From positions 14,464 through 78,463 of the forward strand of contig JBBTQY010000003.1 of NCBI GenBank assembly GCA_038065475.1: a stretch of 64,000 nt of DNA, read 5' to 3'. The first letter of the stretch is position 1. Each line of letters begins with the position of its first letter. This document shows, piece after piece, positions 12,473-45,527 of the stretch. Under the pieces are notes generated by a model, which searched no databases, was not told the DNA's origin, and saw only the letters and a list, made by a program, of their open reading frames with translations. A program made the position numbers and the translations under genes. The DNA comes from Patescibacteria group bacterium (GTDB lineage: Bacteria > Patescibacteriota > Minisyncoccia > Ryanbacterales > GWA2-47-10b).

Positions 12473-12510
12473 CTATTACGATTATTATGCGAAGAAATAT
12501 ACACAAAAAT

Positions 12511-16339: not shown

Positions 16340-16360
16340 ACAGTATATTGCATAGTATCG

Positions 16361-17788: not shown

Positions 17789-17789
17789 A

Positions 17790-24602: not shown

Positions 24603-24603
24603 A

Positions 24604-24903
24604 TTATTCTGCGAACGCCCGAACTCCTCGCCGGTGAAGTACAATATTGCGTACATAGATTGAAAACGCAATCACCTGCCCAGCAAAAAAAACTGGATCT
24701 CTTGTATGGAGCGTATAAATAAAAATCATGACACTGCCCATAGCACTCAAGTACCAATACATAATGGGAATCGTACTCCTACCACTTCGCTCCGAATCAA
24801 TCCATTGGATCATGAGCCTCAAAAAAAAGAAAAATTGTCCTAAAAACCCCACGAGAACCCAAGCGTCAATCGTAAATCCTAAAATAGTAAAGGGAGCAAA
24901 CAT
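24604..24903 (-). CDS. Lipid-A-disaccharide synthase N-terminal domain (LAB_N) small membrane protein
   Basis: 99 aa with 3 TM helices. WYLSAMGSVMIFIYTLHTRDPVFFAGQ matches the LAB_N consensus. It sits next to the GT-C and GT2 genes, as is typical. Confidence 0.6.
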   Translation of the reverse strand: MFAPFTILGFTIDAWVLVGFLGQFFFFLRLMIQWIDSERSGRSTIPIMYWYLSAMGSVMIFIYTLHTRDPVFFAGQVIAFSIYVRNIVLHRRGVRAFAE

Positions 24904-24915: not shown

Positions 24916-26004
24916 TTATCCTTGGGCTGTTTTCGCAATCGCACTATATACGCGCTGACTCATAGCGTCTTCGCTACAAAGACGCTCGAATAACTTATGC
25001 CCCTCGTGCATCACGTGCTCACGAATATCGGCATGATCGCGTATCCATAAAATTTTTTCTGCTAAAGCATTGGGGTCGTTGATGCGGCAAAAAAATGCAG
25101 TCTCACCATCATGAAAAAAATGCTCGACAACTGACACCTCGGGCGGGCCCGCGGTCAAAAACGGCTGGCCCATAGCGATTGTTTCGAAGGATTTATTGAG
25201 CAGATTCCGCCGCGCCTTTGGCGTATCGCCAAACATTCCGAGACAAAGATCGGCATCTTTACGTTGTGTAATCATTTCCTCATCAGAAAGACGCCTACTG
25301 ATAAGCTCCACATTTGAAAGCTTTAACTCCCGATGAAGCTTCTCAATCACCGAAGACAACTGCCCCTTACCTGCTATACGAAAAATAATATTGGTATCTT
25401 CCAACTGCTTTGCGGCGCGTAAGACGACATCGATCCCATGGACAGGACTTATCTCCCCGCAAAATTCGACGACGAATTTATCTTTATCAGCCGGCAATTT
25501 TTCTTGTACCCGTGGATAAAAAATGGTGCGATCTGCGCACATAGGAATCTCTACAAATCGATCCCGTGGCGTACCAAACGTCTCATGAATTCGGTCAGCG
25601 TGTATTGGATCGTGCACAACGATAACTGTTGATTTAGTATGCGCCTGCCGATCAAGCCACCACACAACGCGACATCGCCACGAACCGTGCATAAAAAGTT
25701 TTCGATCAACACACGCCCCATCATGAAGCTCTGTTTGGAGATCAAAAATGATAGGTTTTTTTGTAAATAAACGCAAAAACGGAACAATCGGATGGCCCAT
25801 CCATCCTACAAAAAATATATCATGCGAATACATCAAAAAAGGTAATCGTAAAAAAATACTGAGAAAACGGAGTGGGAAAGAATTTTGCTTCGATGCCAGC
25901 AGCGTCGTCTGATGCCGCTTCTTAAGAATTCGGTATTTTATGCGATTACTAGGGTAGCTTGGCGATGCGCCGCAGACAAAAAGTATCTTAGGCCTCTCGA
26001 TCAT
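24916..26004 (-). CDS. Glycosyltransferase family 4 (GT-B, glycosyl transferases group 1)
   Basis: C-terminal EFCGEISPVHGIDVVLRAA...GDTPKARRNLLNKSFETIAMGQPFLT (EX7E-type region). Start at the internal ATG (MIERPKILFV). Confidence 0.8.
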   Translation of the reverse strand: MIERPKILFVCGASPSYPSNRIKYRILKKRHQTTLLASKQNSFPLRFLSIFLRLPFLMYSHDIFFVGWMGHPIVPFLRLFTKKPIIFDLQTELHDGACVDRKLFMHGSWRCRVVWWLDRQAHTKSTVIVVHDPIHADRIHETFGTPRDRFVEIPMCADRTIFYPRVQEKLPADKDKFVVEFCGEISPVHGIDVVLRAAKQLEDTNIIFRIAGKGQLSSVIEKLHRELKLSNVELISRRLSDEEMITQRKDADLCLGMFGDTPKARRNLLNKSFETIAMGQPFLTAGPPEVSVVEHFFHDGETAFFCRINDPNALAEKILWIRDHADIREHVMHEGHKLFERLCSEDAMSQRVYSAIAKTAQG

Positions 26005-26908
26005 ATTTAGGCACGGTCGGGTCTGAACGATTGATAATCTCAGCGATAAGCCCCATGAGAATAAACTGGAAACCAATCAATATACATACTGCCGCGAGTA
26101 TCGGGAGTGGCGTGCGGATAAAATGAGTATCTTCAAAAACCTTGAGCCAGAGCGCCCACATGCCTGCTACGGCGCCGAGCAAAAAACTTGCAAAGCCTAC
26201 GGCTCCAAAAAAATGCATGGGACGGCGCGCATATTTATAAAAAAAGTGAAACGCGAGCACATCAAGTAATACCTTAAATGTACGCGAAATGCCGTATTTT
26301 GAAGTACCGAACTTGCGGGACTCAAAAGCAACGGGCATCTCGGCAACGCGTGCACCTTCGCGTTTAGCATATGCCACGATCATGCGATGCATATCACCCG
26401 TAAAATGCAGTCCTTCTAGAATCTCACGACGATATATCTTGAGCGTGCAACCATGATCGTGTAAGTGCACGCGCGTCACCAGCGAGATAAGGCGATTGGC
26501 AATCGCCGACGGAATACGCCGAGTAAATAGTTTTCCCTTCCAACGATCTTTACGCCATCCTGATACGATATCGTACCCTTCATCAAGCTTGGCTAGCAGG
26601 CGCGGAATATCACTCGGGCGGTTCTCGAGATCGCCGTCAAGCGTGATAATAACCTCTCCGCGGGATTCTCGCACGCCAACGCCCAATGCCGCAGTCTGGC
26701 CTGCGTTGCGTTTCAAACGAAGCAACAAAAGAGGCTTTATACCGCGCAATACATCGCTTGTTCCATCTGAAGATCCATCATCGACAAAAATAAGTTCGTA
26801 CGGTTTACCGAGAGCATCGAAAACGGAAATAAGCTCTTTATGCAACAAGGGAGCCGATTCCTTTTCATTATAGAGCGGCACAATAACTGAATACGTAGGT
26901 CGTTCCAT
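25988..26908 (-). CDS. GT2 polyprenyl-phosphate sugar synthase (Dpm1/ArnC/GtrB-like) with C-terminal TM helices
   Basis: YSVIVPLYNEKES...ELIFVDDGSSDGT...LDGDL motifs plus two C-terminal TM helices. Confidence 0.85.
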   Translation of the reverse strand: MERPTYSVIVPLYNEKESAPLLHKELISVFDALGKPYELIFVDDGSSDGTSDVLRGIKPLLLLRLKRNAGQTAALGVGVRESRGEVIITLDGDLENRPSDIPRLLAKLDEGYDIVSGWRKDRWKGKLFTRRIPSAIANRLISLVTRVHLHDHGCTLKIYRREILEGLHFTGDMHRMIVAYAKREGARVAEMPVAFESRKFGTSKYGISRTFKVLLDVLAFHFFYKYARRPMHFFGAVGFASFLLGAVAGMWALWLKVFEDTHFIRTPLPILAAVCILIGFQFILMGLIAEIINRSDPTVPKYDREA

Positions 26909-26929: not shown

Positions 26930-28246
26930 TCAAGAAAAAATCAAGCTTCCGGAACAAACTGCTTCTACTGCTTCTTTTACGTCAGTATAATGTGGATATT
27001 CTCTCAAGAGTACCTCACGCTCATCTTTGCAACTATATCCCGTCTTGACTCCGACAAATGCTATACCCGCGCGCTCTGCTGTTTTTGCATCGATAGTAGA
27101 ATCGCCAATCAACACACTTCGCGAGAGATCGATATTAAAATCTTTCACTGCCAACTCTATCATACCGATGCCAGGCTTTCGACACTCGCACGATACTTTT
27201 AACCCCTCCACCTCACCTGGGAACCCCTTTTCGGGATAATGCGGACACATATATATCGCATCTAACTTTGCACCTACAGCACCGAGTGTATTTTCAATCT
27301 TTATATTGATCTGCCTCGCTACTACATTAGTGACCAATCCCTTAGCGATCACTGGTTGATTCGTCACTAAAATTGCTAAATACTCCGTATCATTAATACG
27401 GCGTATCGCCTCTACAGCTTCCGGATACACATCACAATCCTCGGGGCGCGTAACACCGCCGATTTCTTTATTGATCACACCATCACGATCGAGAAAAATG
27501 GCGGGGCGCGGATACTCGCTGTTCATGCGAGATATCTTCCCCGCAGCGCAATCTCTCTCTGCTTCGCGCAAACGCTCAGGCGTACCAATATCTTTGAGAT
27601 ATTCAGCGGAATGATATGCGTATATCTCACCGCCATTTGCAAGAATACTTGGAAACACGTTTTTTTCGAGATCGGCAAAACCCTTAACTGGAATATATGA
27701 AAATATTTTTGGGGAAATAATGTATACGGACCCTACACTAAAATTTCCAACGAGCATGCCGGCATCACGGGGACGTGAATACAGCGCGGCAATTTTCCCC
27801 GACATATCCCGCTCAACGAGGTCGCTGTCATGCATATGATCAGTCGGGTGACCCAACACTGTCAGTGTTGCATTAGCGTGTTGTTGGTGCCATTTTTGAA
27901 ATCGTGGAATATTGACATCGAGCATGATATCGCCCGATAACAACAAAAAATCCTCGCGCATCTTATCGTGAAGCGCTCGCAACGCGCCAGCCGTGCCTTG
28001 CGGCTCATCTTCTGTAAGATACGAAATAGAAGCTCCCCACTGCAAACCATCATTACAATACTCGCGTATACTGCTTGCCTGATATCCCAGAAGTAATGTT
28101 ATATCTATAATACCATAACGTTTTAATAACAAAATCTGATGCTCAAGAATTGTTTTTCCTCCAATTAAAACAAGTGATTTTGGAGTATCTCGCGTGAGCT
28201 CCCCGAGACGTGTGCCACGCCCACCAGCTAAAATGACTGCTCTCAT
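26930..28246 (-). CDS. Bifunctional fusion: sugar-1-phosphate nucleotidylyltransferase (HddC-like heptose-1-P guanylyltransferase) joined to a HAD-IIIA D,D-heptose 1,7-bisphosphate phosphatase (GmhB-like)
   Basis: N-terminal MRAVILAGGRGTRLGELT...GTAGAL nucleotidyltransferase signature. C-terminal AIFLDRDGVINKE...CECRKPGIGM is the GmhB signature. Confidence 0.8.
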   Translation of the reverse strand: MRAVILAGGRGTRLGELTRDTPKSLVLIGGKTILEHQILLLKRYGIIDITLLLGYQASSIREYCNDGLQWGASISYLTEDEPQGTAGALRALHDKMREDFLLLSGDIMLDVNIPRFQKWHQQHANATLTVLGHPTDHMHDSDLVERDMSGKIAALYSRPRDAGMLVGNFSVGSVYIISPKIFSYIPVKGFADLEKNVFPSILANGGEIYAYHSAEYLKDIGTPERLREAERDCAAGKISRMNSEYPRPAIFLDRDGVINKEIGGVTRPEDCDVYPEAVEAIRRINDTEYLAILVTNQPVIAKGLVTNVVARQINIKIENTLGAVGAKLDAIYMCPHYPEKGFPGEVEGLKVSCECRKPGIGMIELAVKDFNIDLSRSVLIGDSTIDAKTAERAGIAFVGVKTGYSCKDEREVLLREYPHYTDVKEAVEAVCSGSLIFS

Positions 28247-29253
28247 GCGAGAAACTGTTCTGAATCTGGGTTCATGCTGTAAATAACCGTGCTACCCAAG
28301 TTTTCAAAACGAAAGGGAACGTGCAAATACTGCCCCAACTTTGCGCGAACACGCGATTGATCCTCTGGGCGGACAAACAACAGCATGAACCCTCCCCCGC
28401 CTGCACCCAAAAGCTTCCCTCCGATCGCCCCCGCGCTTTGCGCATCGGCATACATAGTATCAATCGCAGACGTTGAAATCTTTGACGTAAGACTGCGCTT
28501 AACGAGCCAACCTTCATGAAGCAGTTTTCCAAAGTCGTCGATGGATTCTGGGCTACCTTTTAAAATCTCATACGCCTCATCTACCATTGTACGCATACGC
28601 GTGAGCTCTTTTGCTTTTTGTGGTGTTGTCTTTATTTGTTCGGCAGCAATCTCAGAAGCATTGCGCGGATATCCAGTAAAAAATAACATCAATCTTCCGT
28701 GGAAAATACGCATGCTCTCTTGTGAAATATCCACTGGCTCCACCCTCAATTCATCCTGCCCACCAAAGTATATTTTATTCAAACCACCAAATGCTGCAGC
28801 AACTTGATCTTGAGAGCCGACATTTTCCTTGATCATGTTCTGCTCAACATGAATGGCACTGCGAGCTAAAGCATCTTTTGATATTGTCTTACCTTCAAGT
28901 GCATGAAGAGCATTGAGAAATCCAACAGTAAATGCCGAGCTTGATCCGATACCTGACATGCCAGGCACGTCAGTGTTGTGCTGCATCTCGATACCTTGAT
29001 CGAAGGTAAGATGCGCAAGACACTCGCGCACTGATGGATGCTGAATATCAGCGAGAGCATTTACTTCTTCTTGGCGACCGTAGCGAATACGATATTTGCA
29101 GTCAAAAAACGGCGGGAGATATCTCGTCGTAATATAACAATATTTATCAATTGTCGCCGATAACACCGCCCCCCCGTGTTCTCGATACCATATAGGATAA
29201 TCCGTGCCCCCACCGAAAAAGGAGATGCGAAACGGCGTACGCGTAATAACCAT
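28243..29253 (-). CDS. hddA: GHMP-family sugar kinase (D-glycero-alpha-D-manno-heptose 7-phosphate kinase, HddA-like)
   Basis: FFGGGTDYP...PGMSGIGSSSAFTVG is the GHMP motif. True start is the internal ATG at 29253 (MVITRTPF). The longer track ORF is an alternate-frame read-through over the radical-SAM gene. Confidence 0.8.
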   Translation of the reverse strand: MVITRTPFRISFFGGGTDYPIWYREHGGAVLSATIDKYCYITTRYLPPFFDCKYRIRYGRQEEVNALADIQHPSVRECLAHLTFDQGIEMQHNTDVPGMSGIGSSSAFTVGFLNALHALEGKTISKDALARSAIHVEQNMIKENVGSQDQVAAAFGGLNKIYFGGQDELRVEPVDISQESMRIFHGRLMLFFTGYPRNASEIAAEQIKTTPQKAKELTRMRTMVDEAYEILKGSPESIDDFGKLLHEGWLVKRSLTSKISTSAIDTMYADAQSAGAIGGKLLGAGGGGFMLLFVRPEDQSRVRAKLGQYLHVPFRFENLGSTVIYSMNPDSEQFLA

Positions 29254-29285
29254 TGAAGTTACCTTACGCTTTTTAGCGTATTTTT

Positions 29286-29322
29286 TCAATAAAAAATGGG
29301 CCGCGAAATGACTTCGCGGCCC
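29286..29322 (-). terminator. Rho-independent terminator of the radical-SAM gene
   Basis: 10-bp stem GGGCCGCGAA/TTCGCGGCCC 5 nt after the stop codon, followed by ATTTTTTATT on the minus strand. Confidence 0.6.
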
Positions 29323-29326
29323 CGTG

Positions 29327-31300
29327 CTAGTAGTGCCCCTCTCGTTCGAGGTTCGCAGCCGTACCGTAGAGGTAGGCGCCCTTCTTGTTGCCATACCACA
29401 CGACGTGCTGCATCCAGTCTTCCCACGTCGACCATTGTTCCGTGGTGCGATCGATATGGTGCCACACCATACACTCTTTAAGATCCACCGCTTCGGATCC
29501 TTCGAGCATACGGCGCGCCGAATGGTAGACCCCCCACACATTGTAACGAAGTGAGAGATCGACATCTTTGGTCTGAAAAGGAAGTTTGACAAGACTCTGG
29601 TTGAGCAGAACCGCATCCGCAAGAAGTAGTGCGGGAATCGTAACGGAACGCTCCGAGAAGAAACGAGCGAGAAGAGAGCTAGCTTCTTGGTAAAACGCGG
29701 AGAGCTTACCCTCACGCGCGAGCTTGATGAAGACGTACTCGTCCGGCGGCCAGTAGACATTGAGCCACTCTGGTGCCGGACATTGCTCGATATCGCCTCC
29801 TTGGATACGCCGTGCCTTCTCTTGGAAAAAGGCGCGGATCTCCGAGAGAACCGGATATCCTGCGAGCGATCCTTCGGTGAACACCTCGATGAGCTCCCGA
29901 TACGAGACACCCGTCGTCTTTTGAAGAACCACGAGTGGTATCTGAAAAAGCTTGTCGAAGTGAAGAAGTGCGGTCATCCAGGAAAAGACACGCGCCCTGA
30001 CCCAGTCTTCGCGTGGCATCGCGTTAGTTGCGACGACCAAGTCTTCGTACTCACGAATCTGATCCGGCGTCGTATCGATGACGCCATGGTAGATGACAGC
30101 TTCGACTGATACCGACTGAATGCCGAATTGTGCCTGATAGTCAGGATTACCCATCTCAGCATTTGGCAAGATGGAACAGTTGCTGAACTGGATCCGATTG
30201 TGCTGACCCGATTCGATCGCCTCCGATACTCCGGCGACGAACGTTTCGTAGGTCTCTCCCGGCAGCGCGAGAATCAAATCGCTATACGTCTCGATGCCCG
30301 CGGCGGTAAACCGCTTTTGCAGGCGACGAAAATCTTCGAGCGAAATATTCCGACGCTTGATGGATTCGAGCGTGACCGGATCAAGAGATTGGAACGCGAG
30401 CGTCACCCCCTTGTTGAGGCCGGCGTCTGCGAGAATCTTCTGCGCCTGAAAGATGCGCTCTTCTGCGTTCTTCGCGTTCTGTACGGAGAGCGCGTGAGGA
30501 TACCCTAGGCGCGCCTTCACGCTCGCTGCATACCGTGCGATCTCAACATCCCGAGGGAAAATGCCGAAGTTCGCATCGCAGCAAAACATGAACTCGATAC
30601 GATGGGCAGCGACCCACTCGAGCTCGGCGTAGAGGCGACTTTCATCAAACCTAAACACCTTACTCGCAATCGCAGAACCCCAATCGCAAAATGTGCATGC
30701 GAACGGGCATCCGCGATTTGTCTCCCACAGAAACAACCACTGCTCTTCGGGATGTTCAGCCATAAGTTGGCTAAACACGCCGGAGGTGTAGGGAGACGGA
30801 ATGAGTGAAAGATCGGGAATGCGCGGCATGCGCTCGTTTTGCACGTACCGTCCTTCTTCGTCGATGAAGCTCGTCGAAGGAATGTCGTGCCAATCGCGCA
30901 CGGATGCGCGCTCGAGCACGCGTGTGAACACCTGCTCGCCTTCATTGTGACACGCGACATCCACCCATGGATGCGCGCGCAAGAACAACTCTGACCGATC
31001 GGGTACCTGTGGTCCGCCGAAGACGATGATCACGGCGGGGTTTTGCTCTTTGAGCTGTCGCGCGATCTCGAGCGAGATATTTTGATTCCAGACATAGAGA
31101 CTGAAACCTACGATATCCGCGCTACGAAGCGCTTCGAGGGCATCATCAAGCGCGATGCGCTTGTAGAGCGGTGGGAGAAATTCGTACTCATGAGATGCGG
31201 CGAGGTGCTGTTGGGCATACGCCTGCAATATCCCTACGGAGTACGGAAGATAGTTTTGTCCTGAGAAACTGTTGTTGATCTGTACGAGTCCGACTCTCAT
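29327..31300 (-). CDS. Cobalamin(B12)-binding radical SAM enzyme (class B radical SAM) with a C-terminal extension of about 250 aa
   Basis: N-terminal B12-binding region, then the radical SAM cluster motif CPFACTFC (CxxxCxxC). Total length 657 aa. SD AAAGGAGG lies 9 nt upstream of the ATG. GC-rich. Confidence 0.85.
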   Translation of the reverse strand: MRVGLVQINNSFSGQNYLPYSVGILQAYAQQHLAASHEYEFLPPLYKRIALDDALEALRSADIVGFSLYVWNQNISLEIARQLKEQNPAVIIVFGGPQVPDRSELFLRAHPWVDVACHNEGEQVFTRVLERASVRDWHDIPSTSFIDEEGRYVQNERMPRIPDLSLIPSPYTSGVFSQLMAEHPEEQWLFLWETNRGCPFACTFCDWGSAIASKVFRFDESRLYAELEWVAAHRIEFMFCCDANFGIFPRDVEIARYAASVKARLGYPHALSVQNAKNAEERIFQAQKILADAGLNKGVTLAFQSLDPVTLESIKRRNISLEDFRRLQKRFTAAGIETYSDLILALPGETYETFVAGVSEAIESGQHNRIQFSNCSILPNAEMGNPDYQAQFGIQSVSVEAVIYHGVIDTTPDQIREYEDLVVATNAMPREDWVRARVFSWMTALLHFDKLFQIPLVVLQKTTGVSYRELIEVFTEGSLAGYPVLSEIRAFFQEKARRIQGGDIEQCPAPEWLNVYWPPDEYVFIKLAREGKLSAFYQEASSLLARFFSERSVTIPALLLADAVLLNQSLVKLPFQTKDVDLSLRYNVWGVYHSARRMLEGSEAVDLKECMVWHHIDRTTEQWSTWEDWMQHVVWYGNKKGAYLYGTAANLEREGHY

Positions 31301-31342
31301 CAGTACTTTCCTCCTTTCATTTTTTTAAGGTTCGTACTGGTG

Positions 31343-31371
31343 TTCCTGTGTCAATAAACCAATAAAATAGT
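31343..31371 (-). promoter_or_regulatory. Putative sigma70-like promoter TTGACA-N17-TTTATT for the radical-SAM gene
   Basis: Consensus -35 with a 17-nt spacer, about 35 nt upstream of the SD and ATG. It lies between an upstream terminator and the gene. Confidence 0.4.
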
Positions 31372-31390
31372 ATTTTGTCAATATTCCTCA

Positions 31391-31424
31391 AAAAGAAAAG
31401 CAGGGGCCCCGTGAGGAGTCCCTG
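31391..31424 (-). terminator. Putative intrinsic terminator after the methyltransferase gene
   Basis: GC-rich hairpin CAGGG-(GGGGCCCC-containing loop)-CCCTG followed by CTTTTCTTTTT on the minus strand. Confidence 0.35.
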
Positions 31425-31448: not shown

Positions 31449-32393
31449 TCATAAAGGCCGCCACACGATGTAGGAGTACGCGTCGTGATAGAGATTGCCG
31501 AAATGCACCCGTTGCACGCGCTCAAGCTCGATACGGCCTTGGCCTTCGAGCTCGCGAAGCCGCGTCAAGTATCCCGACAAATAGTTGCGTTTGCGAGAAA
31601 ACTGCAGCGCGAGCGCATCAGTCACCTGCGTCGGATCGTAAAGCTCCTCGATCCCGTCAACATGCACGAAGCACACGCATGGGTGTTCGAGTACCGACTG
31701 GATGAAGGGTTCGAATGCTCCACCGACTTGCTCGAGTGCATGAAATGCCAAGAGCGCATCGCTCGGCGCATGATCCATACGCACTGATGGAGCGAAAAGA
31801 TCGAAGACATCGCCCCGCACATTCCACCCACATCCTGTACGCATGACCTCGATTATGTCACGCGACGCTTCCGCCCAATCGTACCCGAAGAGTTTCTTTT
31901 CGGGATACATCACGGCGAGCGTCGCGAGATTCATTCCAGAACCGCATCCGAACTCGTGTATTGCCGAGGCGTTGGCGAAATACTTTTCGAACAGCCATCG
32001 GCAAAACACCTGACGCACGTTGAGCTCGAAGAGATTGCTCGCCGGCTCAATGTACTCGCCGAATAGCCGTACAGGCGCCCCAGGCCGATCATAGTACTTC
32101 GGCACGAGAGCACGAATGTTGTAGCCACTCGCCTTGAAGTCGACCAGATTCTCTGACCATCCTTCTTGCCAGCGAGGCTGTCTTCCTCGCCCCGCGGGCG
32201 CGAGACTTGGTGTATCTTCGCCGAGCCTTTCCTGGATCATCGCTATGATTTCAGATTGTCGCGATGCAGAAAGATGAGAGAATCGAAAGTCGGTCAAAAA
32301 AATCATCGCCTGCACTGCGGGCGAGAAATCGTCAACCGTCACCCCGAATAACCGGGCGAAATCACCTATCCTGAGCGTATCCATCTTGCCCAT
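31449..32393 (-). CDS. Class I SAM-dependent methyltransferase (sugar methyltransferase candidate) with an N-terminal extension of about 120 aa
   Basis: Motif I IHEFGCGSGMNL. The start ATG is in a TGATG overlap with the upstream reductase stop, so the two are translationally coupled. GC-rich. Confidence 0.7.
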   Translation of the reverse strand: MGKMDTLRIGDFARLFGVTVDDFSPAVQAMIFLTDFRFSHLSASRQSEIIAMIQERLGEDTPSLAPAGRGRQPRWQEGWSENLVDFKASGYNIRALVPKYYDRPGAPVRLFGEYIEPASNLFELNVRQVFCRWLFEKYFANASAIHEFGCGSGMNLATLAVMYPEKKLFGYDWAEASRDIIEVMRTGCGWNVRGDVFDLFAPSVRMDHAPSDALLAFHALEQVGGAFEPFIQSVLEHPCVCFVHVDGIEELYDPTQVTDALALQFSRKRNYLSGYLTRLRELEGQGRIELERVQRVHFGNLYHDAYSYIVWRPL

Positions 32394-33343
32394 CAGTGAG
32401 CACCTTGCCTTTCTCGATACCACGCGATTGTTTCTCGGAGACCGTCTCGCAAAGAAACCGCGGGACGAAATCCGATCGACTCTGCGCGTGTCGTATCCAT
32501 CACTCGTATCTGATCGCCTTCCGACTGTTCACCATCCCACACAATCGCGGGATCTTCGCCAGCCTCTTGGCAGATGATCGCGAGTAGTTCATAAATTGAA
32601 ACGCCCGTACCGCTACCGAGATTGACCGGATCGACAATACCTCGCTCGGCGACAAGCATCATCCCACGCGCAACATCGCGCGCGTGTACGAAGTCTCGTA
32701 TCTCGGTACCGTCGCCCCTCACCCGAACTGGGAATTCGCGGCTGACAACTTTGCGTACAAATGAAGGAACGACCATCGCCGCGTCTGACTCGAAGTCGTC
32801 GTGCGGGCCGTAGGTATTGGCTGGACGTACGATTGAAATAGCGTCCCAACCGTACTCAATGCGGTATGCCTCCGCCTGAAGCTCCCCCGCGCGCTTTGCG
32901 CACGCAGGAAAACGATCATTGCGTGGAAGTGGCGTGCGCCAGACATCGTCTTCACAGAAGATTGGAGCTGTATCGTACACGCCCAGAGAACTCGTGAAGA
33001 GAAATCCTTCGACGTCGCTCCGGCGCGCCGCTTCCATGAGATTCGTGTTGAACATGAGCTGCGGCACGAGCAGGTGCGCGGGCCGCGCCTTCACGGCTGC
33101 GGGTGAACCTTTCACACACAGCAGATTGAAAACGTACTCCATGCTGCTGCATGCCTGCATGCAGTTACCGAAATCCGTCAGATCGAGCCTTCGAAACTCG
33201 GCATCGGGATGTGCCAACGTCGCATCACCAAGTGACACGATGCGGACATACGCCCCCGCACGAATCAGAAGCTCGACGAGCGGGATACCGATAAGGCCGG
33301 TGCCGCCTGCGACAAGCACGTGCTTGCCTTTGAAATCAAACAT
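32393..33343 (-). CDS. NAD(P)-dependent epimerase/reductase of the GDP-L-fucose synthase (Fcl/WcaG, extended SDR) family
   Basis: Rossmann HVLVAGGTGLIG. PANTYGPHDDFESDAAMVVPSFVRK resembles the Fcl NLYGPHDNF...SHVIPALIRK region. Confidence 0.75.
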   Translation of the reverse strand: MFDFKGKHVLVAGGTGLIGIPLVELLIRAGAYVRIVSLGDATLAHPDAEFRRLDLTDFGNCMQACSSMEYVFNLLCVKGSPAAVKARPAHLLVPQLMFNTNLMEAARRSDVEGFLFTSSLGVYDTAPIFCEDDVWRTPLPRNDRFPACAKRAGELQAEAYRIEYGWDAISIVRPANTYGPHDDFESDAAMVVPSFVRKVVSREFPVRVRGDGTEIRDFVHARDVARGMMLVAERGIVDPVNLGSGTGVSIYELLAIICQEAGEDPAIVWDGEQSEGDQIRVMDTTRAESIGFRPAVSLRDGLRETIAWYRERQGAH

Positions 33344-34312
33344 TCACAACTCCTCTGGGCAAACCTGCTTGTACCAAGCAAGCGTTTGCTCGATACCTTG
33401 ATCGAGAGTGACGCGCGGACTCCACCCGTAGATTTCCCGCGCTTTAGTGATGTCGAAACATACCTTGGTCGGTATGGTGGGTTTTGAACGATCGTACGTC
33501 ACACCAAGAGTCTTCTCTGAAGCCTTGATGATACGCATGACCAGTTCCCCGATCGACACCGCGGTTCCTGCGGCGACATTAACAACGTCGTGCGGAGGAA
33601 GTGACCCTTGCCGAACATGATCGATGACGCTCGAAATGAACGCACACAGATCGCTCACGTAGAGCAGGTCTCGTTCTGGAGATCCGTCTCCCCACACGGA
33701 AAGATCTTCTCCATCCCGTGCGGCCATGATCTTGGCGACTGTCGCGCCAAAAACATGGGAATGTTCGAGATCGAACTTGTCGTGCGGTCCGTACACGTTT
33801 GATGGACGAACTACCGTGTAGCGTGTCCGACCGAGACGTGAATAGAACTCGGCGAGCTTTTCCGCGCAGATCTTCATCCAGCCAACACCGAAGTAGTTGG
33901 GGAAAAAACCATCACGCAGATCTACATCGCCTTCTGCAAACACATGAGCGGCAGTTCGCTGCGGGTATACGACACCCGAGCTCAGAAAGATCACGTGTCC
34001 GACACCCGCGTTGTGCGCCGCTTCAAACAGCAACGTATTGATGATGATGTTGCCTGCGACGTGCATTTCAGGATGATTGATGATGTCGCTCGAACCAGAA
34101 CTTTTTGCCGCGGCATGCACAATGACGTCCGTACCGCGAACAGCGGTGGCAACCTGCTGCCTATCAGTCAGATCAACCCGACGCGTGCCCGAGAGCACAC
34201 GACTGTTTGTCAGACCGACAACATCGATGTCATCACGCCCCTGCAATGCCTCGTGTATGTTGCGCCCGATGAAGCCGGACGCACCCGTAACAAGCACCCG
34301 TAACTTCTCCAT
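33344..34312 (-). CDS. Second Fcl-like NAD(P)-dependent sugar epimerase/reductase (extended SDR)
   Basis: VLVTGASGFIG and RPSNVYGPHDKFDLEHSHVFGATVAKI. Tandem paralog of the downstream gene. SD AAGGAGG lies 7 nt upstream. Confidence 0.75.
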   Translation of the reverse strand: MEKLRVLVTGASGFIGRNIHEALQGRDDIDVVGLTNSRVLSGTRRVDLTDRQQVATAVRGTDVIVHAAAKSSGSSDIINHPEMHVAGNIIINTLLFEAAHNAGVGHVIFLSSGVVYPQRTAAHVFAEGDVDLRDGFFPNYFGVGWMKICAEKLAEFYSRLGRTRYTVVRPSNVYGPHDKFDLEHSHVFGATVAKIMAARDGEDLSVWGDGSPERDLLYVSDLCAFISSVIDHVRQGSLPPHDVVNVAAGTAVSIGELVMRIIKASEKTLGVTYDRSKPTIPTKVCFDITKAREIYGWSPRVTLDQGIEQTLAWYKQVCPEEL

Positions 34313-34376: not shown

Positions 34377-35438
34377 CTAAAAGGGGCCTTTGAATTTACG
34401 TTCGTAGCTATAAAAATTTTCTTTCGTAAGATCGGTGGGTGTCAGTTTAAGCTGACGCTCTACCTCTCTAATGATAGTCTCAGCTCCCGGATAGAAAACC
34501 ATCTCGAGTGGGCGCGTGCACGGGCATGGAGTGTCGGCAAAATGAATGCGTCCAACTGGCGCGCGCAATACGCCAAAACATTTTTCCGAGACACGCGCAG
34601 CTATCTCAGCACCAAACCCACAAAATCCCCAATCATAGTCAGCGACAATGCAACGTTTTGTTTTTTGTACGGAACGTACGATTGTTTTTTCATCAAGTGG
34701 CACGAGTGTGCGCGGATCGACAATCTCTATCTCAACGCCACGACGCGCAAGGACTTCTGCCGCTCGGAGCGCTTCGACGTTCATCCACGATGTCGCAACA
34801 ACGGTGATATCTTTGCCACGACGCAGCACATGCGCCTTACCAAACGGCATTGGCTCCTGGCGCGCAGGAACTTTATCAATCGCGTCATAAAGCCACCGAT
34901 GTTCAATAATCAATACTGGATTATCATCACGGATTGCCGTGATGAGTAAACCCTTTGCATCCTCGGGTGTCGTTGGCATCACCACCTTCAACCCTGGAAT
35001 ATGCGCGAAGACAGATTGCATGCTTTTATTGTGCTGGTATGACTGGCCCCATCCCCTACCGATAACCGCGCGAATCACCATCGGCACTTTCATCTGTCCG
35101 CCTGATCCGTAGTGCCAGCTTGAAACCATATTTGAGAGTTGATTCATCGCGAGCAATAAAAAATCGATGCGCATATGTACGTTGATGGGTCGCAACCCCG
35201 CGAGGGCAGATCCGAGACCAAACCCGACGAGCGCCTCCTCACACAGAGGCGTACTAAATGATCGCTTTGCGCCAAACTTTTCAGCCAAACCTGCGGTCGT
35301 ACCAAAAATACCTTTGTGATCGGCAATATCAATACCATAGACAAAAACATTTTTATCTCTCTTCATCTCCTGTACCGTCGCCTCGCAAATCGCGTCCCGA
35401 TAACTCAGCATTTTTGACTGAATATTTTTTTTATCCAT
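34377..35438 (-). CDS. Thiamine-diphosphate-dependent E1 component beta subunit-like (transketolase-like pyrimidine-binding and C-terminal domains)
   Basis: KNVFVYGIDIAD...GIFGTTAGLAEKFG is the E1-beta N-terminal signature. Start ATG lies 2 nt after the alpha-subunit stop. Confidence 0.8.
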   Translation of the reverse strand: MDKKNIQSKMLSYRDAICEATVQEMKRDKNVFVYGIDIADHKGIFGTTAGLAEKFGAKRSFSTPLCEEALVGFGLGSALAGLRPINVHMRIDFLLLAMNQLSNMVSSWHYGSGGQMKVPMVIRAVIGRGWGQSYQHNKSMQSVFAHIPGLKVVMPTTPEDAKGLLITAIRDDNPVLIIEHRWLYDAIDKVPARQEPMPFGKAHVLRRGKDITVVATSWMNVEALRAAEVLARRGVEIEIVDPRTLVPLDEKTIVRSVQKTKRCIVADYDWGFCGFGAEIAARVSEKCFGVLRAPVGRIHFADTPCPCTRPLEMVFYPGAETIIREVERQLKLTPTDLTKENFYSYERKFKGPF

Positions 35439-36393
35439 AGAAAACATCTTGATATAATTCAGCATTGGCGGGAAACGGGGCGCGCTGTGCTTTACGGACA
35501 GCGCCAGCAATAGCCTGCTCAATGTCTTTCTCGATACCTAGGATTTTTGATTCTGAAAGGCCTTGTCGAATCAAACGTGCGCGCTGTAATTTTACCGGAT
35601 CGTGTTTTTCCCATACATCAAATTCCTTGCGCCCCCGATACCCAACATCAAAATCAGTATTGATCCCCACATGCTCCAAGTATCGATAATACTGCGTACT
35701 TAAAAAAACGGGCCTTTTATTTTTCTGTAATAATCGCATCGCTTTTTGTGTCGCTGCATATATCTTTTCTACATCCGTACTTTTTTCCTCAATCACCGTG
35801 CATTCAAATTTGGAAACAATAGCATCGAGTGAGCGGTACCCATGACGTCGTTCTTTTGGATTGTGTACCGCCAAACCATTGTCTTCGTAGACGAAAAGTG
35901 CCGGGATGCCGAGCGCGGCGCTCATATTTAAAGACTCCCAAAAAACACCTTCATCGACAGCACCGTCACCGAAAAAAGTCGCGGCGATAGTTTTTTTCTT
36001 CTTATATATATTGGCAAACGCCGCACCTACCGCAAGTGGTAGAGTACTCGCGACAATAGCGGAAGCTCCGAAAAAACCTGCGGATGGCGCAGAAAGATGC
36101 ATAGAACCCGCCTTTCCTTTCGCATTACCGGTACGCTTTCCGTACAGTTCCGCAAAAAAAGTATCTGCCTCACCGGTGCGCGCGAGATATACCGCGTGAC
36201 TTCTATATGAAGAAAATACTTGAGCATCCTTCCCAAGCGCATGACACACCCCGACCGAAATCGCCTCACCCCCCATAGACATATGCATGGGCGTCTTCAT
36301 GTCGTCCTCAAGATAGTGCGCAATAATAGCCTGTTCAGAAGCCCTGACAAGATAGAGTGCTTTATAGAGTTTAATACTAAGTTCTGATTTCAT
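35431..36393 (-). CDS. Thiamine-diphosphate-dependent E1 component alpha subunit-like (pyruvate/acetoin dehydrogenase E1-alpha family)
   Basis: TPP-binding FFGDGAVDEGVFWESLNMSA plus the YRSHAV...G region. Start at the internal ATG (MKSELSIKLY). Confidence 0.8.
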   Translation of the reverse strand: MKSELSIKLYKALYLVRASEQAIIAHYLEDDMKTPMHMSMGGEAISVGVCHALGKDAQVFSSYRSHAVYLARTGEADTFFAELYGKRTGNAKGKAGSMHLSAPSAGFFGASAIVASTLPLAVGAAFANIYKKKKTIAATFFGDGAVDEGVFWESLNMSAALGIPALFVYEDNGLAVHNPKERRHGYRSLDAIVSKFECTVIEEKSTDVEKIYAATQKAMRLLQKNKRPVFLSTQYYRYLEHVGINTDFDVGYRGRKEFDVWEKHDPVKLQRARLIRQGLSESKILGIEKDIEQAIAGAVRKAQRAPFPANAELYQDVFYG

Positions 36394-36511
36394 AGGTAAA
36401 CGATATCTGTAATCATAGACACTCTGAAGAAAACGTCTACCCCTGAAGCTTGCCAATGCCTTCTTTTCGGTATATCGTGCGACAAACGCATCTTAACATA
36501 CGAGGTCACTC

Positions 36512-37090
36512 ATGCGCATAAAACCGCTCGTTAAAGTTGGAAGGCCAGTCGAACTTACCAAACGCTTCTTCGGAAAAGCGATGGTGAGACAATCCTATCG
36601 ACGCCGCAACAATGGCACGATAGAAGACTACTACTTTTTCGGTCACAGCTCTCAGTGGGCATCCATCGTATTCCCACTCACGCCTACAGACGAAGTGGTC
36701 GCCATCCGGCAGTTCAGGCCTGCGGTCGGCAAAGCGATTCTCGAATTGCCTGGGGGAACCCTGGAGGACGAGGCGACGCCGGAGATAGTGGCGCGCCAAG
36801 AACTCACCGAGGAAACGGGCTACGTAGCGCGAGAACTTCTAGCTCTCACACCGCAACCGATCTTCATTGAGCCCGCAAACACGGCGCTCTCCTACCACCT
36901 CTATCTCGCGACTGGATGTCTACCGACTGGTGAACAAAGCCTTTCGCCTACCGAAGATATAGAGGTCGTGCTCATGCCGCTTCGCACATGGATACAGAAG
37001 ATTCGACGTGGCCATATCCAAGACGGCCGAAGTATCGTGGCGACCTTTCTCGCACTACCCCACCTCAAGGCGTGGGCTGGGCTCGTATGA
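36512..37090 (+). CDS. Nudix hydrolase (nucleoside-diphosphate-sugar/ADP-ribose pyrophosphatase-like)
   Basis: Nudix box GGTLEDEATPEIVARQELTEETGY. Confidence 0.75.
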   Translation: MRIKPLVKVGRPVELTKRFFGKAMVRQSYRRRNNGTIEDYYFFGHSSQWASIVFPLTPTDEVVAIRQFRPAVGKAILELPGGTLEDEATPEIVARQELTEETGYVARELLALTPQPIFIEPANTALSYHLYLATGCLPTGEQSLSPTEDIEVVLMPLRTWIQKIRRGHIQDGRSIVATFLALPHLKAWAGLV

Positions 37091-37102: not shown

Positions 37103-37597
37103 TTATATAGTTTTTTTAATTTTTTCTATAATGCTCGTGGTTGAAATATTTTCAAATTCGGGTGGACACCAACGATCAAGCATGACAAACTGTATCTTAT
37201 GTTTTTTAGCAATCTCTTCCCGATAGGATAGATCGAAGGCATCCTTATTGACGACATACACGTCCGGATGGAGTCCCGCGAACAACGGCTCAAGATAAGC
37301 GTTCAAATTATCTGCAGGCACCGGACCATCGAATAAGACATAATCAACGGGCTTGAGCGAATCAACCATCTTGATACGCACCTCTTCATTCAGTATCGGG
37401 CGGCCGCTCTTATATTTTTTAATATTTTCATCACATCCAACCACGACGACTAAAATATCGCCGTACTTTTTGCACTCATCAAAAAAAAGCGCGTGACCTG
37501 CATGAGTCAAATCAAACACGCCCGAACAAAAAATAATCTTTTTGTTCTTGTGTGTCTCGCGAATATTTGGTAAGTCAGTATATGTGATGCGCGCCAT
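37103..37597 (-). CDS. Cytidylyltransferase-family nucleotidyltransferase (TagD glycerol-3-phosphate cytidylyltransferase / HldE domain II-like)
   Basis: IIFCSGVFDLTHAGHALFFDECKKYGDILVVVVGCDENI (HxGH motif) and a C-terminal ISTTSIIEKIKK that resembles the TagD C-terminus. Start at the internal ATG (MARITYTDL). Confidence 0.75.
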   Translation of the reverse strand: MARITYTDLPNIRETHKNKKIIFCSGVFDLTHAGHALFFDECKKYGDILVVVVGCDENIKKYKSGRPILNEEVRIKMVDSLKPVDYVLFDGPVPADNLNAYLEPLFAGLHPDVYVVNKDAFDLSYREEIAKKHKIQFVMLDRWCPPEFENISTTSIIEKIKKTI

Positions 37598-37684
37598 CGT
37601 GACTGTTATGGTACTGAAAAATATTGCTAACGACAACTTGATAAAAAAATGGGGGGGTGACGCCACCCCCCCTTCCTGCGTACC

Positions 37685-45522: not shown

Positions 45523-45527
45523 ATATT

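What the first reader, a model, noticed from the sequence alone, without database searches (positions are those of the whole stretch)
29327..31371. Class B (cobalamin-dependent) radical SAM enzyme as its own transcription unit inside a sugar operon
The 657-aa ORF has a Rossmann-like B12-binding N-terminal region, the CPFACTFC radical-SAM cluster motif, and about 250 aa of C-terminal sequence with no recognisable motif. It has its own near-consensus promoter (TTGACA-N17-TTTATT), a strong SD (AAAGGAGG) and its own terminator (10-bp stem). Intrinsic terminators sit on both sides, so it is expressed separately from its neighbours. It is also GC-rich relative to the low-GC genes of the locus. B12-radical-SAM enzymes acting on nucleotide sugars are rare (aminoglycoside and fosfomycin-type pathways are the known examples), so finding one in a cell-surface glycan locus is unusual.
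Basis: partly seen in the sequence, partly recalled or inferred. Interest (0 to 1): 0.6.

Follow-up and report, generated by a model that had tools for sequence, protein, structure and literature searches.

The report
TokK-like B12 radical-SAM sugar methylase
This groundwater Patescibacteria gene encodes a vitamin-B12-dependent radical SAM enzyme built like the antibiotic methylases TokK and CysS; its large, uncharacterised family almost always sits beside heptose-sugar tailoring genes, so it probably methylates a cell-surface sugar precursor by a route not yet described.

Summary
ORF 29327-31300 (-) encodes a 657-aa protein with B12-binding and Radical_SAM domains and the CPFACTFC cluster motif. 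A strong hairpin terminator lies downstream. A hairpin, TTGACA-N14-TGn-TTTATT and AAAGGAGG lie upstream. All these signals are conserved in a relative with 68% protein identity.

The protein is not GenK/Fom3-like. It is a full-length structural homologue of TokK (TM 0.82 over about 640 columns) and CysS, so the "motif-less" C-terminus is the TokK-type substrate-binding domain.

The family is very large: at least 556 species representatives across many phyla, at 52-68% identity, with no functional name. Its surroundings are conserved: heptose activation genes (HddA, HddC, GmhB), a 4,6-dehydratase, an RmlC-like epimerase, Fcl-like reductases, DegT and a thiamine-dependent E1alpha/beta pair. In 57 of 73 loci a reductase gene starts directly after it.

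Best reading: a cobalamin-dependent C-methylase acting on an NDP-6-deoxy-4-keto-heptose-derived intermediate of a surface glycan. The substrate and position are inferred, not shown.

Separate transcription appears specific to this lineage and does not mean functional independence. The GC-richness is shared with the three upstream genes. I found no paper describing this family.

The parts
29327..31300 (-). 657-aa TokK/CysS-type cobalamin-dependent radical SAM enzyme: B12 Rossmann domain about res 1-135, radical SAM core about 185-400 with C198-x3-C202-x2-C205, TokK-type C-terminal domain about 420-645
31310..31317 (-). Shine-Dalgarno AAAGGAGG, 9 nt upstream of the ATG; GAAAGGAG is conserved in L001
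31353..31381 (-). promoter-like element TTGACA-N14-TGG-TTTATT (perfect -35, extended -10 TG, weak -10); -35, TG and -10 are all retained in L001
   Evidence: not called by the consensus scan
31390..31424 (-). terminator-like hairpin (10-bp stem with one mismatch) plus CTTTTCTTTTT, ending the upstream SDR-SDR-MTase genes; stem changes on both sides in L001
29288..29322 (-). strong intrinsic-terminator-like hairpin GGGCCGCGAA-gtcat-TTCGCGGCCC plus ATTTTTTATT, directly after the stop codon; conserved in position in L001
31449..32393 (-). 314-aa divergent class I SAM-dependent methyltransferase, with no Pfam or NCBIfam hit itself; homologues carry Methyltransf_25/12. Part of the GC-rich block; co-occurs with the rSAM in 13 of the clustered loci (10 of 39 well-flanked loci by tblastn)
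32393..33343 (-). Fcl-like (GDP-L-fucose-synthase-like) extended SDR, putative 4-keto reductase/epimerase
33344..34312 (-). second Fcl-like extended SDR
34377..35522 (-). thiamine-diphosphate-dependent E1 beta-like subunit (Transket_pyr + Transketolase_C); start codon uncertain
35431..36456 (-). thiamine-diphosphate-dependent E1 alpha-like subunit (E1_dh); start codon uncertain
36512..37090 (+). NUDIX hydrolase (NudE/NudK-like nucleotide-sugar pyrophosphatase)
37103..37666 (-). RfaE-domain-II-like (heptose-1-P adenylyltransferase-like) nucleotidyltransferase; start uncertain
37685..38215 (-). RmlC-like NDP-4-keto-sugar 3,5-epimerase
38212..39210 (-). NDP-sugar 4,6-dehydratase; scores equally as Gmd-like and RmlB-like, below both cutoffs
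28243..29253 (-). HddA-like D-glycero-D-manno-heptose 7-phosphate kinase (GHMP). The true start is the ATG at 29253, not the 555-aa ORF that overlaps the rSAM gene
26930..28246 (-). HddC-like sugar-1-P nucleotidyltransferase fused to a GmhB-like heptose bisphosphate phosphatase
25988..26908 (-). ArnC-like GT2 polyprenyl-phosphate glycosyltransferase
22875..24903 (-). small LAB_N membrane protein (24604-24903; LAB_N family assigned from its 65%-identical L001 counterpart) plus a PMT_2/ArnT-like GT-C glycosyltransferase (22875-24671): predicted flip-and-transfer arm for a polyprenyl-P-linked sugar

Best explanation
The ORF encodes a three-domain, TokK/CysS-type cobalamin-dependent radical SAM C-methyltransferase. 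It belongs to a very large, strongly conserved and functionally unnamed orthologous group that is part of a nucleotide-heptose tailoring cassette.

Proposed pathway (inferred). HddA, GmhB and HddC make an NDP-D-glycero-D-manno-heptose, most likely GDP-linked. The 4,6-dehydratase converts it to the 6-deoxy-4-keto sugar. The RmlC-like epimerase, DegT and the ThDP-dependent E1alpha/beta pair modify it further; by analogy, the E1 pair adds a two-carbon branch from pyruvate. The radical SAM enzyme then methylates an unactivated sp3 carbon of this intermediate, once or iteratively. A co-encoded NAD(P)H reductase reduces the remaining keto group: Fcl-like SDRs here, an aldo-keto reductase in most other lineages.

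Proposed chemistry (by homology with TokK). The reduced [4Fe-4S] cluster cleaves SAM to a 5'-deoxyadenosyl radical, which abstracts a substrate hydrogen. The substrate radical takes the methyl group from methylcobalamin. Cob(I)alamin is remethylated by a second SAM.

The finished sugar is probably passed to polyprenyl phosphate (ArnC-like GT2), flipped, and transferred by an ArnT/PMT_2-type GT-C enzyme to the Patescibacterial cell surface.

In this lineage the gene has its own extended -10 promoter and is bracketed by hairpin terminators. This would allow it to be expressed separately from the flanking sugar genes.
For: Shown:
- Domains and cluster motif.
- Sequence homology to TokK: 343 bits with the single sequence, 428 bits with the family profile, over res 16-476. 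CysS scores 195 and 264 bits.
- AF2 model with pLDDT 85 and pTM 0.88. It superposes on TokK at TM 0.82 over 637-643 columns and on CysS at TM 0.66-0.73. OxsB and TsrM reach only about 0.5.
- TokK's downstream Cbl motif A70-x-S72-x-Y74-x-W76 (PMC9204698) appears here as G65-x-S67-x-Y69-x-W71. S67, Y69 and W71 are invariant in the family.
- The best NCBIfam model is the KedN5-family methylcobalamin C-methyltransferase (266 bits).
- Family size and conservation: more than 4400 hits in the homologue search, of which the 120 best listed are full-length at 55-94% identity, and at least 556 GTDB species representatives. The whole length is conserved, including the C-terminal W626, W629, W635 and GNKKGAYLY.
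- Context: full synteny in L001. The same gene set occurs in a Sungiibacteriota genome and in the cyanobacterium Kovacikia.
- Among 39 well-flanked genome loci, counts within 10 kb are: Fcl-like SDR 33, 4,6-dehydratase 29, HddA 28, E1alpha 27, E1beta 25, DegT 21. With a 40% coverage threshold, 32 of 39 have at least 3 of 8 cassette genes, and 33 of 39 have heptose-activation genes.
- A reductase gene starts within -60 to +250 bp of the rSAM stop codon in 57 of 73 loci: AKR in 44, Fcl-like SDR in 13 (maps).
- More distant relatives (30-51% identity) in IMG/VR contigs also sit beside a 4,6-dehydratase, SDR, DegT and RmlC-like gene.
- Transcription signals are conserved in L001.

Inferred: methylation as the reaction, an NDP-sugar as the substrate, the order of steps, and the role of the E1 pair.
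Against: - No biochemical data exist for any member, and I found no paper on the family.
- The protein scores far below the curated KedN5-family cutoff (266 against 700 bits), and that match covers only residues 48-409. It is therefore a separate subfamily whose chemistry could differ.
- The substrates in the solved TokK and CysS complexes carry a pantetheinyl handle (entry titles), not a nucleotide. No carrier protein is seen in this locus.
- Class B enzymes also catalyse non-methylating reactions (OxsB, BchE, HpnJ).
- No GmhA is present in the window, and the dehydratase's nucleotide specificity is unresolved.
- Patescibacteria are not expected to make cobalamin (background knowledge), and no uptake gene or riboswitch is in the window.
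- 2 of 39 well-flanked loci show none of the cassette genes.
- The promoter and terminators are sequence predictions only. The upstream hairpin is not better than shuffles in the window (z = -1.2).
Confidence: 0.6

Rival explanations
1. The family and pathway context are as in the best explanation, but the enzyme extends a heteroatom-bound methyl group instead. It would turn an O-methyl or N-methyl group on the sugar into ethyl or isopropyl, as CysS and KedN5 do on methoxy groups. The class I methyltransferase encoded directly upstream (31449-32393) would supply the first methyl group.
For: CysS and KedN5 are among the closest characterised relatives. A class I SAM MTase sits immediately upstream in the same GC-rich block and recurs in 13 of the clustered loci.
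Against: The MTase is found in only 10 of 39 well-flanked loci, whereas a reductase directly downstream is found in 57 of 73. This fits keto-sugar chemistry better. TokK, a C-C methylase alpha to a carbonyl (background knowledge), is a closer relative than CysS.
Confidence: 0.15
2. The enzyme is a cobalamin-dependent radical SAM enzyme that does not methylate. It would catalyse a radical rearrangement, ring contraction, cyclisation or C-C coupling of the heptose-derived sugar, as OxsB, HpnJ or BchE do on their substrates.
For: HpnJ, which I recall is proposed to contract a sugar ring in hopanoid cyclitol-ether synthesis, is the second-best NCBIfam hit (88 bits). Class B enzymes have a wide reaction scope (PMC9204698). 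The cassette contains enough C-C bond-forming and redox enzymes to suggest an unusual higher sugar.
Against: Homology to the methylases TokK and CysS is far stronger in sequence and fold (343 and 195 bits; TM 0.82 and 0.7) than to OxsB (TM 0.5) or HpnJ/BchE (88 and 34 bits). The TokK-type Ser-x-Tyr-x-Trp lower-face motif is invariant.
Confidence: 0.1
3. The enzyme acts outside the nucleotide-sugar pool. The substrate could be a polyprenyl-linked sugar, an assembled glycan, or a lipid or carrier-bound small molecule. Co-localisation would then reflect a shared envelope function rather than shared intermediates.
For: The substrates in the solved TokK and CysS complexes are pantetheinylated. The window is a very large envelope-glycan locus with many transferases. 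A few loci lack the cassette.
Against: The conserved neighbours are soluble NDP-sugar tailoring enzymes (dehydratase, epimerase, aminotransferase, reductases). Glycosyltransferases and membrane proteins are not conserved with it: GT2, GT4, PMT_2 and Wzx are found in 0-1 of 39 loci. The gene is tightly coupled to a soluble reductase. No carrier protein or PPTase occurs in the locus.
Confidence: 0.1
4. The flanking hairpins and the promoter-like element do not define a separate transcription unit. The gene would be read through as part of the long minus-strand operon, with the hairpins acting as partial terminators or as mRNA-stabilising or processing elements.
For: The upstream hairpin is weak in the window (z = -1.2). 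The promoter fails the consensus scan. All genes from 39.2 to 22.9 kb except NUDIX are co-oriented. In other phyla the gene is packed without gaps against its neighbours.
Against: The -35, TG, -10 and SD motifs and both hairpins are retained in L001, although the surrounding intergenic DNA is about 53% conserved. The downstream hairpin is strong (-21 kcal/mol with a T-tract).
Confidence: 0.3

Closest known systems
TokK / ThnK (carbapenem C6 alkyl-chain-building cobalamin-dependent radical SAM methylases; PDB 7KDX/7KDY)
   Same: Same three-domain architecture and fold over the whole length (TM 0.82, about 640 aligned columns, about 31% identity). Strong sequence homology over res 16-476. Same CX3CX2C cluster motif and the same Ser-x-Tyr-x-Trp motif below the corrin.
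   Different: The C-terminal ~180 residues are not alignable by sequence. The genomic context is nucleotide-sugar tailoring for a cell-surface glycan, not a beta-lactam cluster, and no pantetheinylated substrate is apparent. The family is spread over many phyla rather than found in actinomycete secondary metabolism.
CysS / KedN5 (iterative methylation of a methoxy group to ethoxy, isopropoxy and similar groups; PDB 9N1B-D; NCBIfam NF033712)
   Same: KedN5 is the best NCBIfam family hit (266 bits). CysS is the second-best PDB hit by sequence and fold.
   Different: The score is far below the NF033712 cutoff (700), and only residues 48-409 align. The context has no NRPS/PKS or enediyne genes.
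GenK, GenD1, Fms7, MoeK5, Fom3 (class B radical SAM methylases acting on aminoglycoside or moenomycin sugars, or on cytidylyl-hydroxyethylphosphonate)
   Different: In the published similarity network, Fom3, MoeK5 and HpnJ co-localise in one cluster and GenK and Fms7 in another. Here HpnJ scores only 88 bits and PhpK 35 bits. Those enzymes belong to antibiotic pathways and, from background knowledge, none acts on a GDP- or NDP-heptose for envelope glycans.
GDP-heptose tailoring pathways of Campylobacter jejuni capsules and Yersinia/Burkholderia O-antigens (HddA/GmhB/HddC, DmhA 4,6-dehydratase, RmlC-like epimerases, Fcl-like C4 reductases); from background knowledge
   Same: Same enzyme families flank the rSAM: HddA-like kinase, an HddC-GmhB fusion, a 4,6-dehydratase, an RmlC-like epimerase and two Fcl-like SDRs.
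   Different: To my knowledge, the known pathways contain no radical SAM enzyme and no ThDP-dependent E1 pair. All the window proteins score below the equivalog cutoffs.
Two-carbon branch attachment to 4-keto sugars by ThDP enzymes (YerE in yersiniose; E1alpha/beta-type pairs such as AviB1/AviB2 in avilamycin); from background knowledge
   Same: An E1alpha/E1beta-like pair is conserved next to the rSAM in 25-27 of 39 loci, alongside a 4,6-dehydratase and ketoreductases.
   Different: The role here is inferred only from family membership. The window pair scores as PDH-E1-like, just below the NCBIfam cutoffs. No branched sugar has been shown.

Membership tests
Class B (cobalamin-binding) radical SAM enzymes | N-terminal Rossmann-type B12-binding domain (PF02310) | tested here: met
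   43.5 bits against cutoff 32.1, res 36-128. The model shows a beta-alpha Rossmann pattern at res 1-135.
Class B (cobalamin-binding) radical SAM enzymes | Radical SAM core with a CX3CX2C [4Fe-4S] motif (PF04055) | tested here: met
   47.2 bits against cutoff 29.5. C198, C202 and C205 are invariant.
Class B (cobalamin-binding) radical SAM enzymes | Actual binding of cobalamin and the Fe-S cluster; SAM cleavage | not testable with these tools
   Needs purified protein (UV-vis, EPR, activity assay).
TokK/ThnK/CysS-type three-domain methylases | Full-length fold, including the TokK-type C-terminal substrate-binding domain | tested here: met
   Foldseek against 7KDX: TM 0.82, 637-643 aligned columns of 657. 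CysS TM 0.66-0.73. Model pLDDT 85.
TokK/ThnK/CysS-type three-domain methylases | Downstream Cbl motif x-Ser-x-Tyr-x-Trp placing Trp under the corrin (TokK W76) | tested here: met
   Window G65-F-S67-L-Y69-V-W71. S67, Y69 and W71 are invariant in 27 sequences. The motif definition comes from PMC9204698.
TokK/ThnK/CysS-type three-domain methylases | Methyl transfer to an sp3 carbon via methylcobalamin | not testable with these tools
   Inferred from homology only.
NCBIfam NF033712 KedN5-family methylcobalamin-dependent radical SAM C-methyltransferase | Whole-protein score at or above the curated cutoff (700 bits) | tested here: not met
   266.5 bits, aligned over res 48-409 of the protein only. 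It is a relative, not a member.
   HpnJ 87.7 bits, BchE 34.3 bits.
MiaB/RimO and other tRNA- or ribosome-modifying radical SAM enzymes | Score at or above the curated cutoff (251) | tested here: not met
   17.4 bits. Foldseek TM to MiaB is about 0.4.
GenK/Fom3-type sugar or phosphonate methylases | Closest similarity to GenK, Fms7, Fom3 or MoeK5 | tested here: inconclusive
   No GenK or Fom3 model or structure was in the libraries searched. Their network neighbours HpnJ and PhpK score 88 and 35 bits, against 343 bits for TokK. A direct tree with GenK and Fom3 sequences was not built.
GDP-D-glycero-alpha-D-manno-heptose pathway (context) | GmhA, HddA, GmhB and HddC all present | tested here: inconclusive
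   HddA-like (128 bits against cutoff 600), HddC-like and GmhB-like proteins are present, with the latter two fused. No GmhA is found in the 64-kb window, but it is present in the cassettes of L004 and L007.

The most novel reading that the evidence does not exclude
The family marks an unrecognised and widespread pathway. It occurs in at least 556 species representatives across many phyla: Patescibacteria, Elusimicrobia, Omnitrophota, Planctomycetes, Nitrospirae, Acidobacteria, Proteobacteria, cyanobacteria and spirochaetes. The pathway would build a C-alkyl-branched or chain-extended higher sugar from a nucleotide-activated 6-deoxy-4-keto-heptose. It would combine ThDP-dependent two-carbon addition with TokK-like, possibly iterative, B12-dependent radical methylation, followed by ketoreduction. 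That would be the first cobalamin-dependent radical SAM step in primary cell-envelope glycan biosynthesis. It would also make envelope synthesis in genome-reduced Patescibacteria depend on scavenged cobalamin.
Probability: 0.3. Interest if true: 0.75.

Novelty: new variant of a known kind. Interest (0 to 1): 0.55.

Why it matters
Cobalamin-dependent radical SAM methylases are known almost entirely from antibiotic and cofactor pathways. This one represents a large, strongly conserved orthologous group (52-68% identity across distant phyla) that no source names functionally. It is tied to heptose-nucleotide tailoring genes and a ThDP-dependent enzyme pair.

If it does methylate a nucleotide-sugar intermediate, three things follow. 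A new class of bacterial surface sugars would be defined. TokK-type chemistry would extend into primary envelope metabolism. Cell-surface synthesis in ultra-small groundwater bacteria would be linked to externally supplied vitamin B12.

The question is directly testable, because cultured carriers exist (Enhydrobacter aerosaccus ATCC 27094, Kovacikia minuta CCNUW1).

Tried and rejected
- Cobalamin riboswitch or other structured RNA in the 148-bp leader: no Rfam family reaches its gathering score anywhere in the window.
- Cobalamin-related genes in the window: the only PF00590 'tetrapyrrole methylase' (1127-1795) is RsmI, the 16S rRNA 2'-O-methyltransferase (215 bits, above cutoff). No uptake or salvage genes were seen.
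- C-terminal region as a novel domain: rejected, because the whole model aligns to TokK.
- GenK/Fom3/TsrM placement: not supported. TsrM TM is about 0.5, and HpnJ/PhpK scores are low.
- The 555-aa ORF 28243-29910 overlapping the rSAM gene is an artefact of ORF extension. The real HddA-like gene starts at 29253.
- The 'unknown' upstream protein: no family hit, but its homologues identify it as a divergent class I methyltransferase.
- GmhA in the window: tblastn with two cassette GmhA proteins gave nothing better than E = 0.65.
- Literature: six full-text searches combining cobalamin/radical SAM with heptose, GDP-D-glycero, nucleotide sugar, O-antigen/capsule and TokK/ThnK found no description of this family.
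- Recent single-gene horizontal transfer as the cause of the high GC: rejected. The GC-rich block has four genes, and the same genes are relatively GC-rich in the 68% relative.
- Not attempted: a structure of the upstream methyltransferase, a tree including GenK and Fom3, and a check of whether the IMG/VR contigs are truly viral.


Full report
**1. The observation**

The minus-strand ORF 29327..31300 encodes 657 aa. Pfam finds B12-binding (res 36-128) and Radical_SAM (res 194-355), both above their gathering scores. The cluster motif CPFACTFC is at C198/C202/C205. Nothing in Pfam or NCBIfam covers the last ~250 residues.

The ATG is preceded by AAAGGAGG at a 9-nt spacing. A 10-11 bp GC-rich hairpin with a T-tract follows the stop codon directly (29322..29298). 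The terminator scan calls it, and it folds at -21 kcal/mol (z = -4.2).

Upstream, the 148-bp gap holds three elements:
- a hairpin with one mismatch plus CTTTTCTTTTT (31424..31390; -14.3 kcal/mol, no better than shuffles);
- TTGACA (31381..31376);
- after 17 nt, TTTATT (31358..31353).

The promoter is less than 'near-consensus'. The -10 lacks the A at position 2, and the scan does not call it. It does have an extended -10 TG.

The decisive support comes from comparison. In L001, a groundwater contig whose rSAM is 68% identical, intergenic DNA is only about half conserved. Even so, the -35, TG, -10 and SD are all retained. Both hairpins keep their positions, with substitutions on both sides of the upstream stem, whose one window mismatch is a proper pair in L001.

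These two gaps, plus one of 64 bp, are the only sizeable gaps in the co-oriented gene string from 39.2 to 22.9 kb. I therefore regard the 'own unit' architecture as real at the sequence level but unproven at the transcript level.

The GC claim is true: 0.547 (GC3 0.64) against 0.41-0.48 in neighbours. The property belongs to a four-gene block, though: rSAM, a methyltransferase and two SDRs. The NUDIX, RmlC-like and dehydratase genes share it. It recurs in L001.

**2. Source**

The exact protein is on record as 'radical SAM protein' (MEK7649508.1) of a Patescibacteria-group MAG from the Hainich H41 well, 0.1-um fraction. The window's SecA carries the same attribution.

The window from about 12 to 62 kb is one large envelope-glycan locus. 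It holds five PMT_2 GT-C enzymes, several GT2 and GT4 enzymes, two DegT aminotransferases, Gmd, Wzx, Wzy-like proteins and many class I methyltransferases.

**3. What the protein is**

By sequence, the nearest solved structures are:
- TokK: 343 bits with the single sequence, 428 bits with the family profile, over res 16-476;
- CysS: 195 and 264 bits.

The best NCBIfam model is the KedN5-family methylcobalamin C-methyltransferase, at 266 bits against a cutoff of 700. HpnJ (88), BchE (34), PhpK (35) and MiaB/RimO (17) lie far below.

An AlphaFold2 model built on 27 family members (pLDDT 85, pTM 0.88) superposes on TokK with TM 0.82 over 637-643 columns. That span includes the C-terminal domain. 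CysS gives TM 0.66-0.73, while OxsB and TsrM give about 0.5. The 'motif-less' C-terminus is therefore the TokK-type C-terminal domain, which in TokK contacts the substrate (PMC9204698).

TokK's lower-face cobalamin motif, A70-x-S72-x-Y74-x-W76, appears here as G65-x-S67-x-Y69-x-W71. S67, Y69 and W71 are invariant in the family.

All characterised members of this clade are methylases of sp3 carbons, often iterative: TokK, ThnK, CysS and KedN5 (background knowledge; the review read treats TokK as a radical methylase).

**4. The family and its context**

The homologue search returned more than 4400 hits. The 120 best listed are all full-length (about 650-690 aa) and 55-94% identical. They come from very different phyla, and none has a functional name.

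A scan of one genome per GTDB species found at least 556 carriers. The best 80, at 52-59% identity, include Elusimicrobia, Planctomycetes, Omnitrophota, Nitrospirae, Acidobacteria, Beta- and Alphaproteobacteria (many Reyranella, and the cultured Enhydrobacter aerosaccus ATCC 27094), Saccharibacteria, Leptonemataceae and cyanobacteria. Conservation runs to the C-terminus.

Context is conserved:
- L001 is syntenic with the window over about 20 genes.
- A Sungiibacteriota genome and Kovacikia minuta share E1alpha/beta, Fcl-like SDRs, a GHMP kinase, a nucleotidyltransferase and GmhA around the rSAM.
- In 39 genome loci with at least 6 kb on both sides, tblastn with the window's proteins finds: Fcl-like SDR in 33, 4,6-dehydratase in 29, HddA in 28, E1alpha in 27, E1beta in 25, DegT in 21, HddC/GmhB in 18, RmlC-like in 15 and the upstream methyltransferase in 10.
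- The window's glycosyltransferases, Wzx and PMT_2 are found in 0-1 of these loci.
- With a 40% coverage threshold, 32 of 39 have at least three of eight cassette genes. Heptose-activation genes are in 33 of 39.

Unbiased clustering of all ORFs added a partner that the window lacks. An aldo-keto reductase starts 0-17 bp after the rSAM in many loci. Overall, a reductase gene begins within -60 to +250 bp of the rSAM stop in 57 of 73 loci: AKR in 44 and Fcl-like SDR in 13.

The neighbours in the window were annotated as follows:
- an HddA-like kinase (true start 29253) and an HddC-GmhB fusion;
- an RfaE-domain-II-like nucleotidyltransferase and a NudE/NudK-like NUDIX hydrolase;
- a 4,6-dehydratase of unresolved nucleotide specificity;
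- an RmlC-like epimerase and two Fcl-like SDRs;
- a PDH-E1-like alpha/beta pair.

The 'unknown' protein directly upstream (31449-32393) is a divergent class I SAM methyltransferase.

Downstream of the activation genes lie an ArnC-like GT2, a GT4, a small LAB_N membrane protein and a PMT_2 GT-C enzyme (the LAB_N family is assigned from the L001 counterpart). From background knowledge, this arrangement is typical of polyprenyl-phosphate-mediated extracytoplasmic glycosylation.

**5. Mechanism proposed**

Shown: the protein is TokK-like in sequence, fold and cofactor motifs, and it is genomically coupled to NDP-heptose synthesis, 4,6-dehydration, epimerisation, transamination, a ThDP E1 pair and a reductase.

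Inferred:
- It uses a 5'-deoxyadenosyl radical to abstract hydrogen from an unactivated carbon of an NDP-6-deoxy-4-keto-heptose-derived intermediate.
- It transfers a methyl group from methylcobalamin, possibly more than once.
- The adjacent reductase then reduces the keto group.

From background knowledge, TokK methylates alpha to a carbonyl. One attractive site is therefore the methyl ketone that an E1-type ThDP enzyme would install as a C-acetyl branch. Another is a ring or side-chain carbon next to the 4-keto group. I cannot discriminate between these.

Alternatives are: extension of an O- or N-methyl group supplied by the upstream methyltransferase (CysS/KedN5-like chemistry), a non-methylating rearrangement, or a substrate outside the nucleotide-sugar pool.

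**6. Comparison with the known, and novelty**

The protein passes the tests for class B radical SAM enzymes and for the TokK-type architecture. It fails the curated KedN5-family cutoff, and it is not HpnJ, BchE or MiaB-like.

Known B12-radical-SAM sugar methylases (GenK, GenD1, Fms7, MoeK5; listed) belong to antibiotic pathways. Six literature searches found nothing on a cobalamin-dependent radical SAM enzyme in heptose or envelope-glycan pathways.

I therefore class it as a new variant of a known kind: known enzyme chemistry and fold, in an undescribed and very widespread pathway context.

**7. Caveats**

- There are no functional data for any family member.
- The substrate and the position of methylation are unknown.
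- GmhA and cobalamin transport genes are absent from the window.
- The transcription signals are predictions.
- The co-occurrence counts have no random-locus control. The contrast with the non-conserved glycosyltransferases in the same window serves as an internal control.

Noticed in passing
L091-L156 (IMG/VR contigs), e.g. L097, L099, L100, L105: 66 predicted-viral contigs, some 100-370 kb long, encode relatives of the rSAM at 27-51% identity. Many again lie beside a 4,6-dehydratase, Fcl-like SDRs, DegT and an RmlC-like gene, and four loci also have E1alpha/beta-like genes. These may be phage-borne surface-sugar genes or misclassified cellular contigs.
   Followed up: partly
loci L015, L026, L031-L033, L036, L039, L045, L046 and others, immediately 3' of the rSAM gene: An aldo-keto reductase of about 320 aa (YdjG-like, 120 bits) starts 0-17 bp after the rSAM in many loci. 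By the broader criterion (start within -60 to +250 bp of the stop), it follows the rSAM in 44 of 73 loci. The window and L001 lack it and have Fcl-like SDRs plus a class I methyltransferase upstream instead.
   Followed up: yes
window 31449-32393 (-): The 314-aa protein has no Pfam or NCBIfam hit but is a divergent class I SAM-dependent methyltransferase, judged from its homologues. The listed 324-aa ORF starts 10 codons too early compared with the called gene.
   Followed up: partly
window 16361-17788, 18349-19761, 22875-24671, 46794-48104, 57750-59075: Five PMT_2/ArnT-like GT-C glycosyltransferases and at least seven class I methyltransferases lie within one 50-kb locus of a small-genome Patescibacterium. 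This is an unusually heavy investment in extracytoplasmic glycosylation.
   Followed up: no
window 20531-22894 (+): A 787-aa protein combines a CotH kinase-like domain with a right-handed beta-helix (NosD-like) region. It is conserved next to the cassette in L001.
   Followed up: no
window 49000-51000: A second GC-rich patch (0.57-0.59 against 0.47 for the window) contains ORFs, such as 50119-50988, with no Pfam or NCBIfam hit.
   Followed up: no
window 26930-28246 (-) versus L001 13057-13776: The HddC-like nucleotidyltransferase is fused to a GmhB-like phosphatase in the window (438 aa) and in L088. It is a stand-alone 239-aa protein in the syntenic L001, at only 42% identity, the lowest in the cassette.
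   Followed up: no
L004 (Candidatus Sungiibacteriota CP066690) 5600-18000: This CPR version of the cassette carries three further radical SAM genes (a 618-aa B12-type, a 455-aa one and a HemN-like one). It also has two PhyH-family dioxygenases, a cupin, a DJ-1/PfpI protein and NeuB, which suggests a more elaborate sugar.
   Followed up: no
window 44812-46211 (+): A VTC-domain protein followed by a DUF4956 protein lies in the middle of the glycan locus.
   Followed up: no
window 60887-62422 (+): In this 511-aa ORF, only the C-terminal ~180 residues match RtcB RNA ligase (92 bits, far below cutoff). It may be a fused or truncated gene, or the ORF start may be over-extended.
   Followed up: no
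window 1127-1795 (-): The PF00590 'tetrapyrrole methylase' hit is RsmI, the 16S rRNA C1402 2'-O-methyltransferase (215 bits, above cutoff). It is not a corrin-pathway enzyme.
   Followed up: yes
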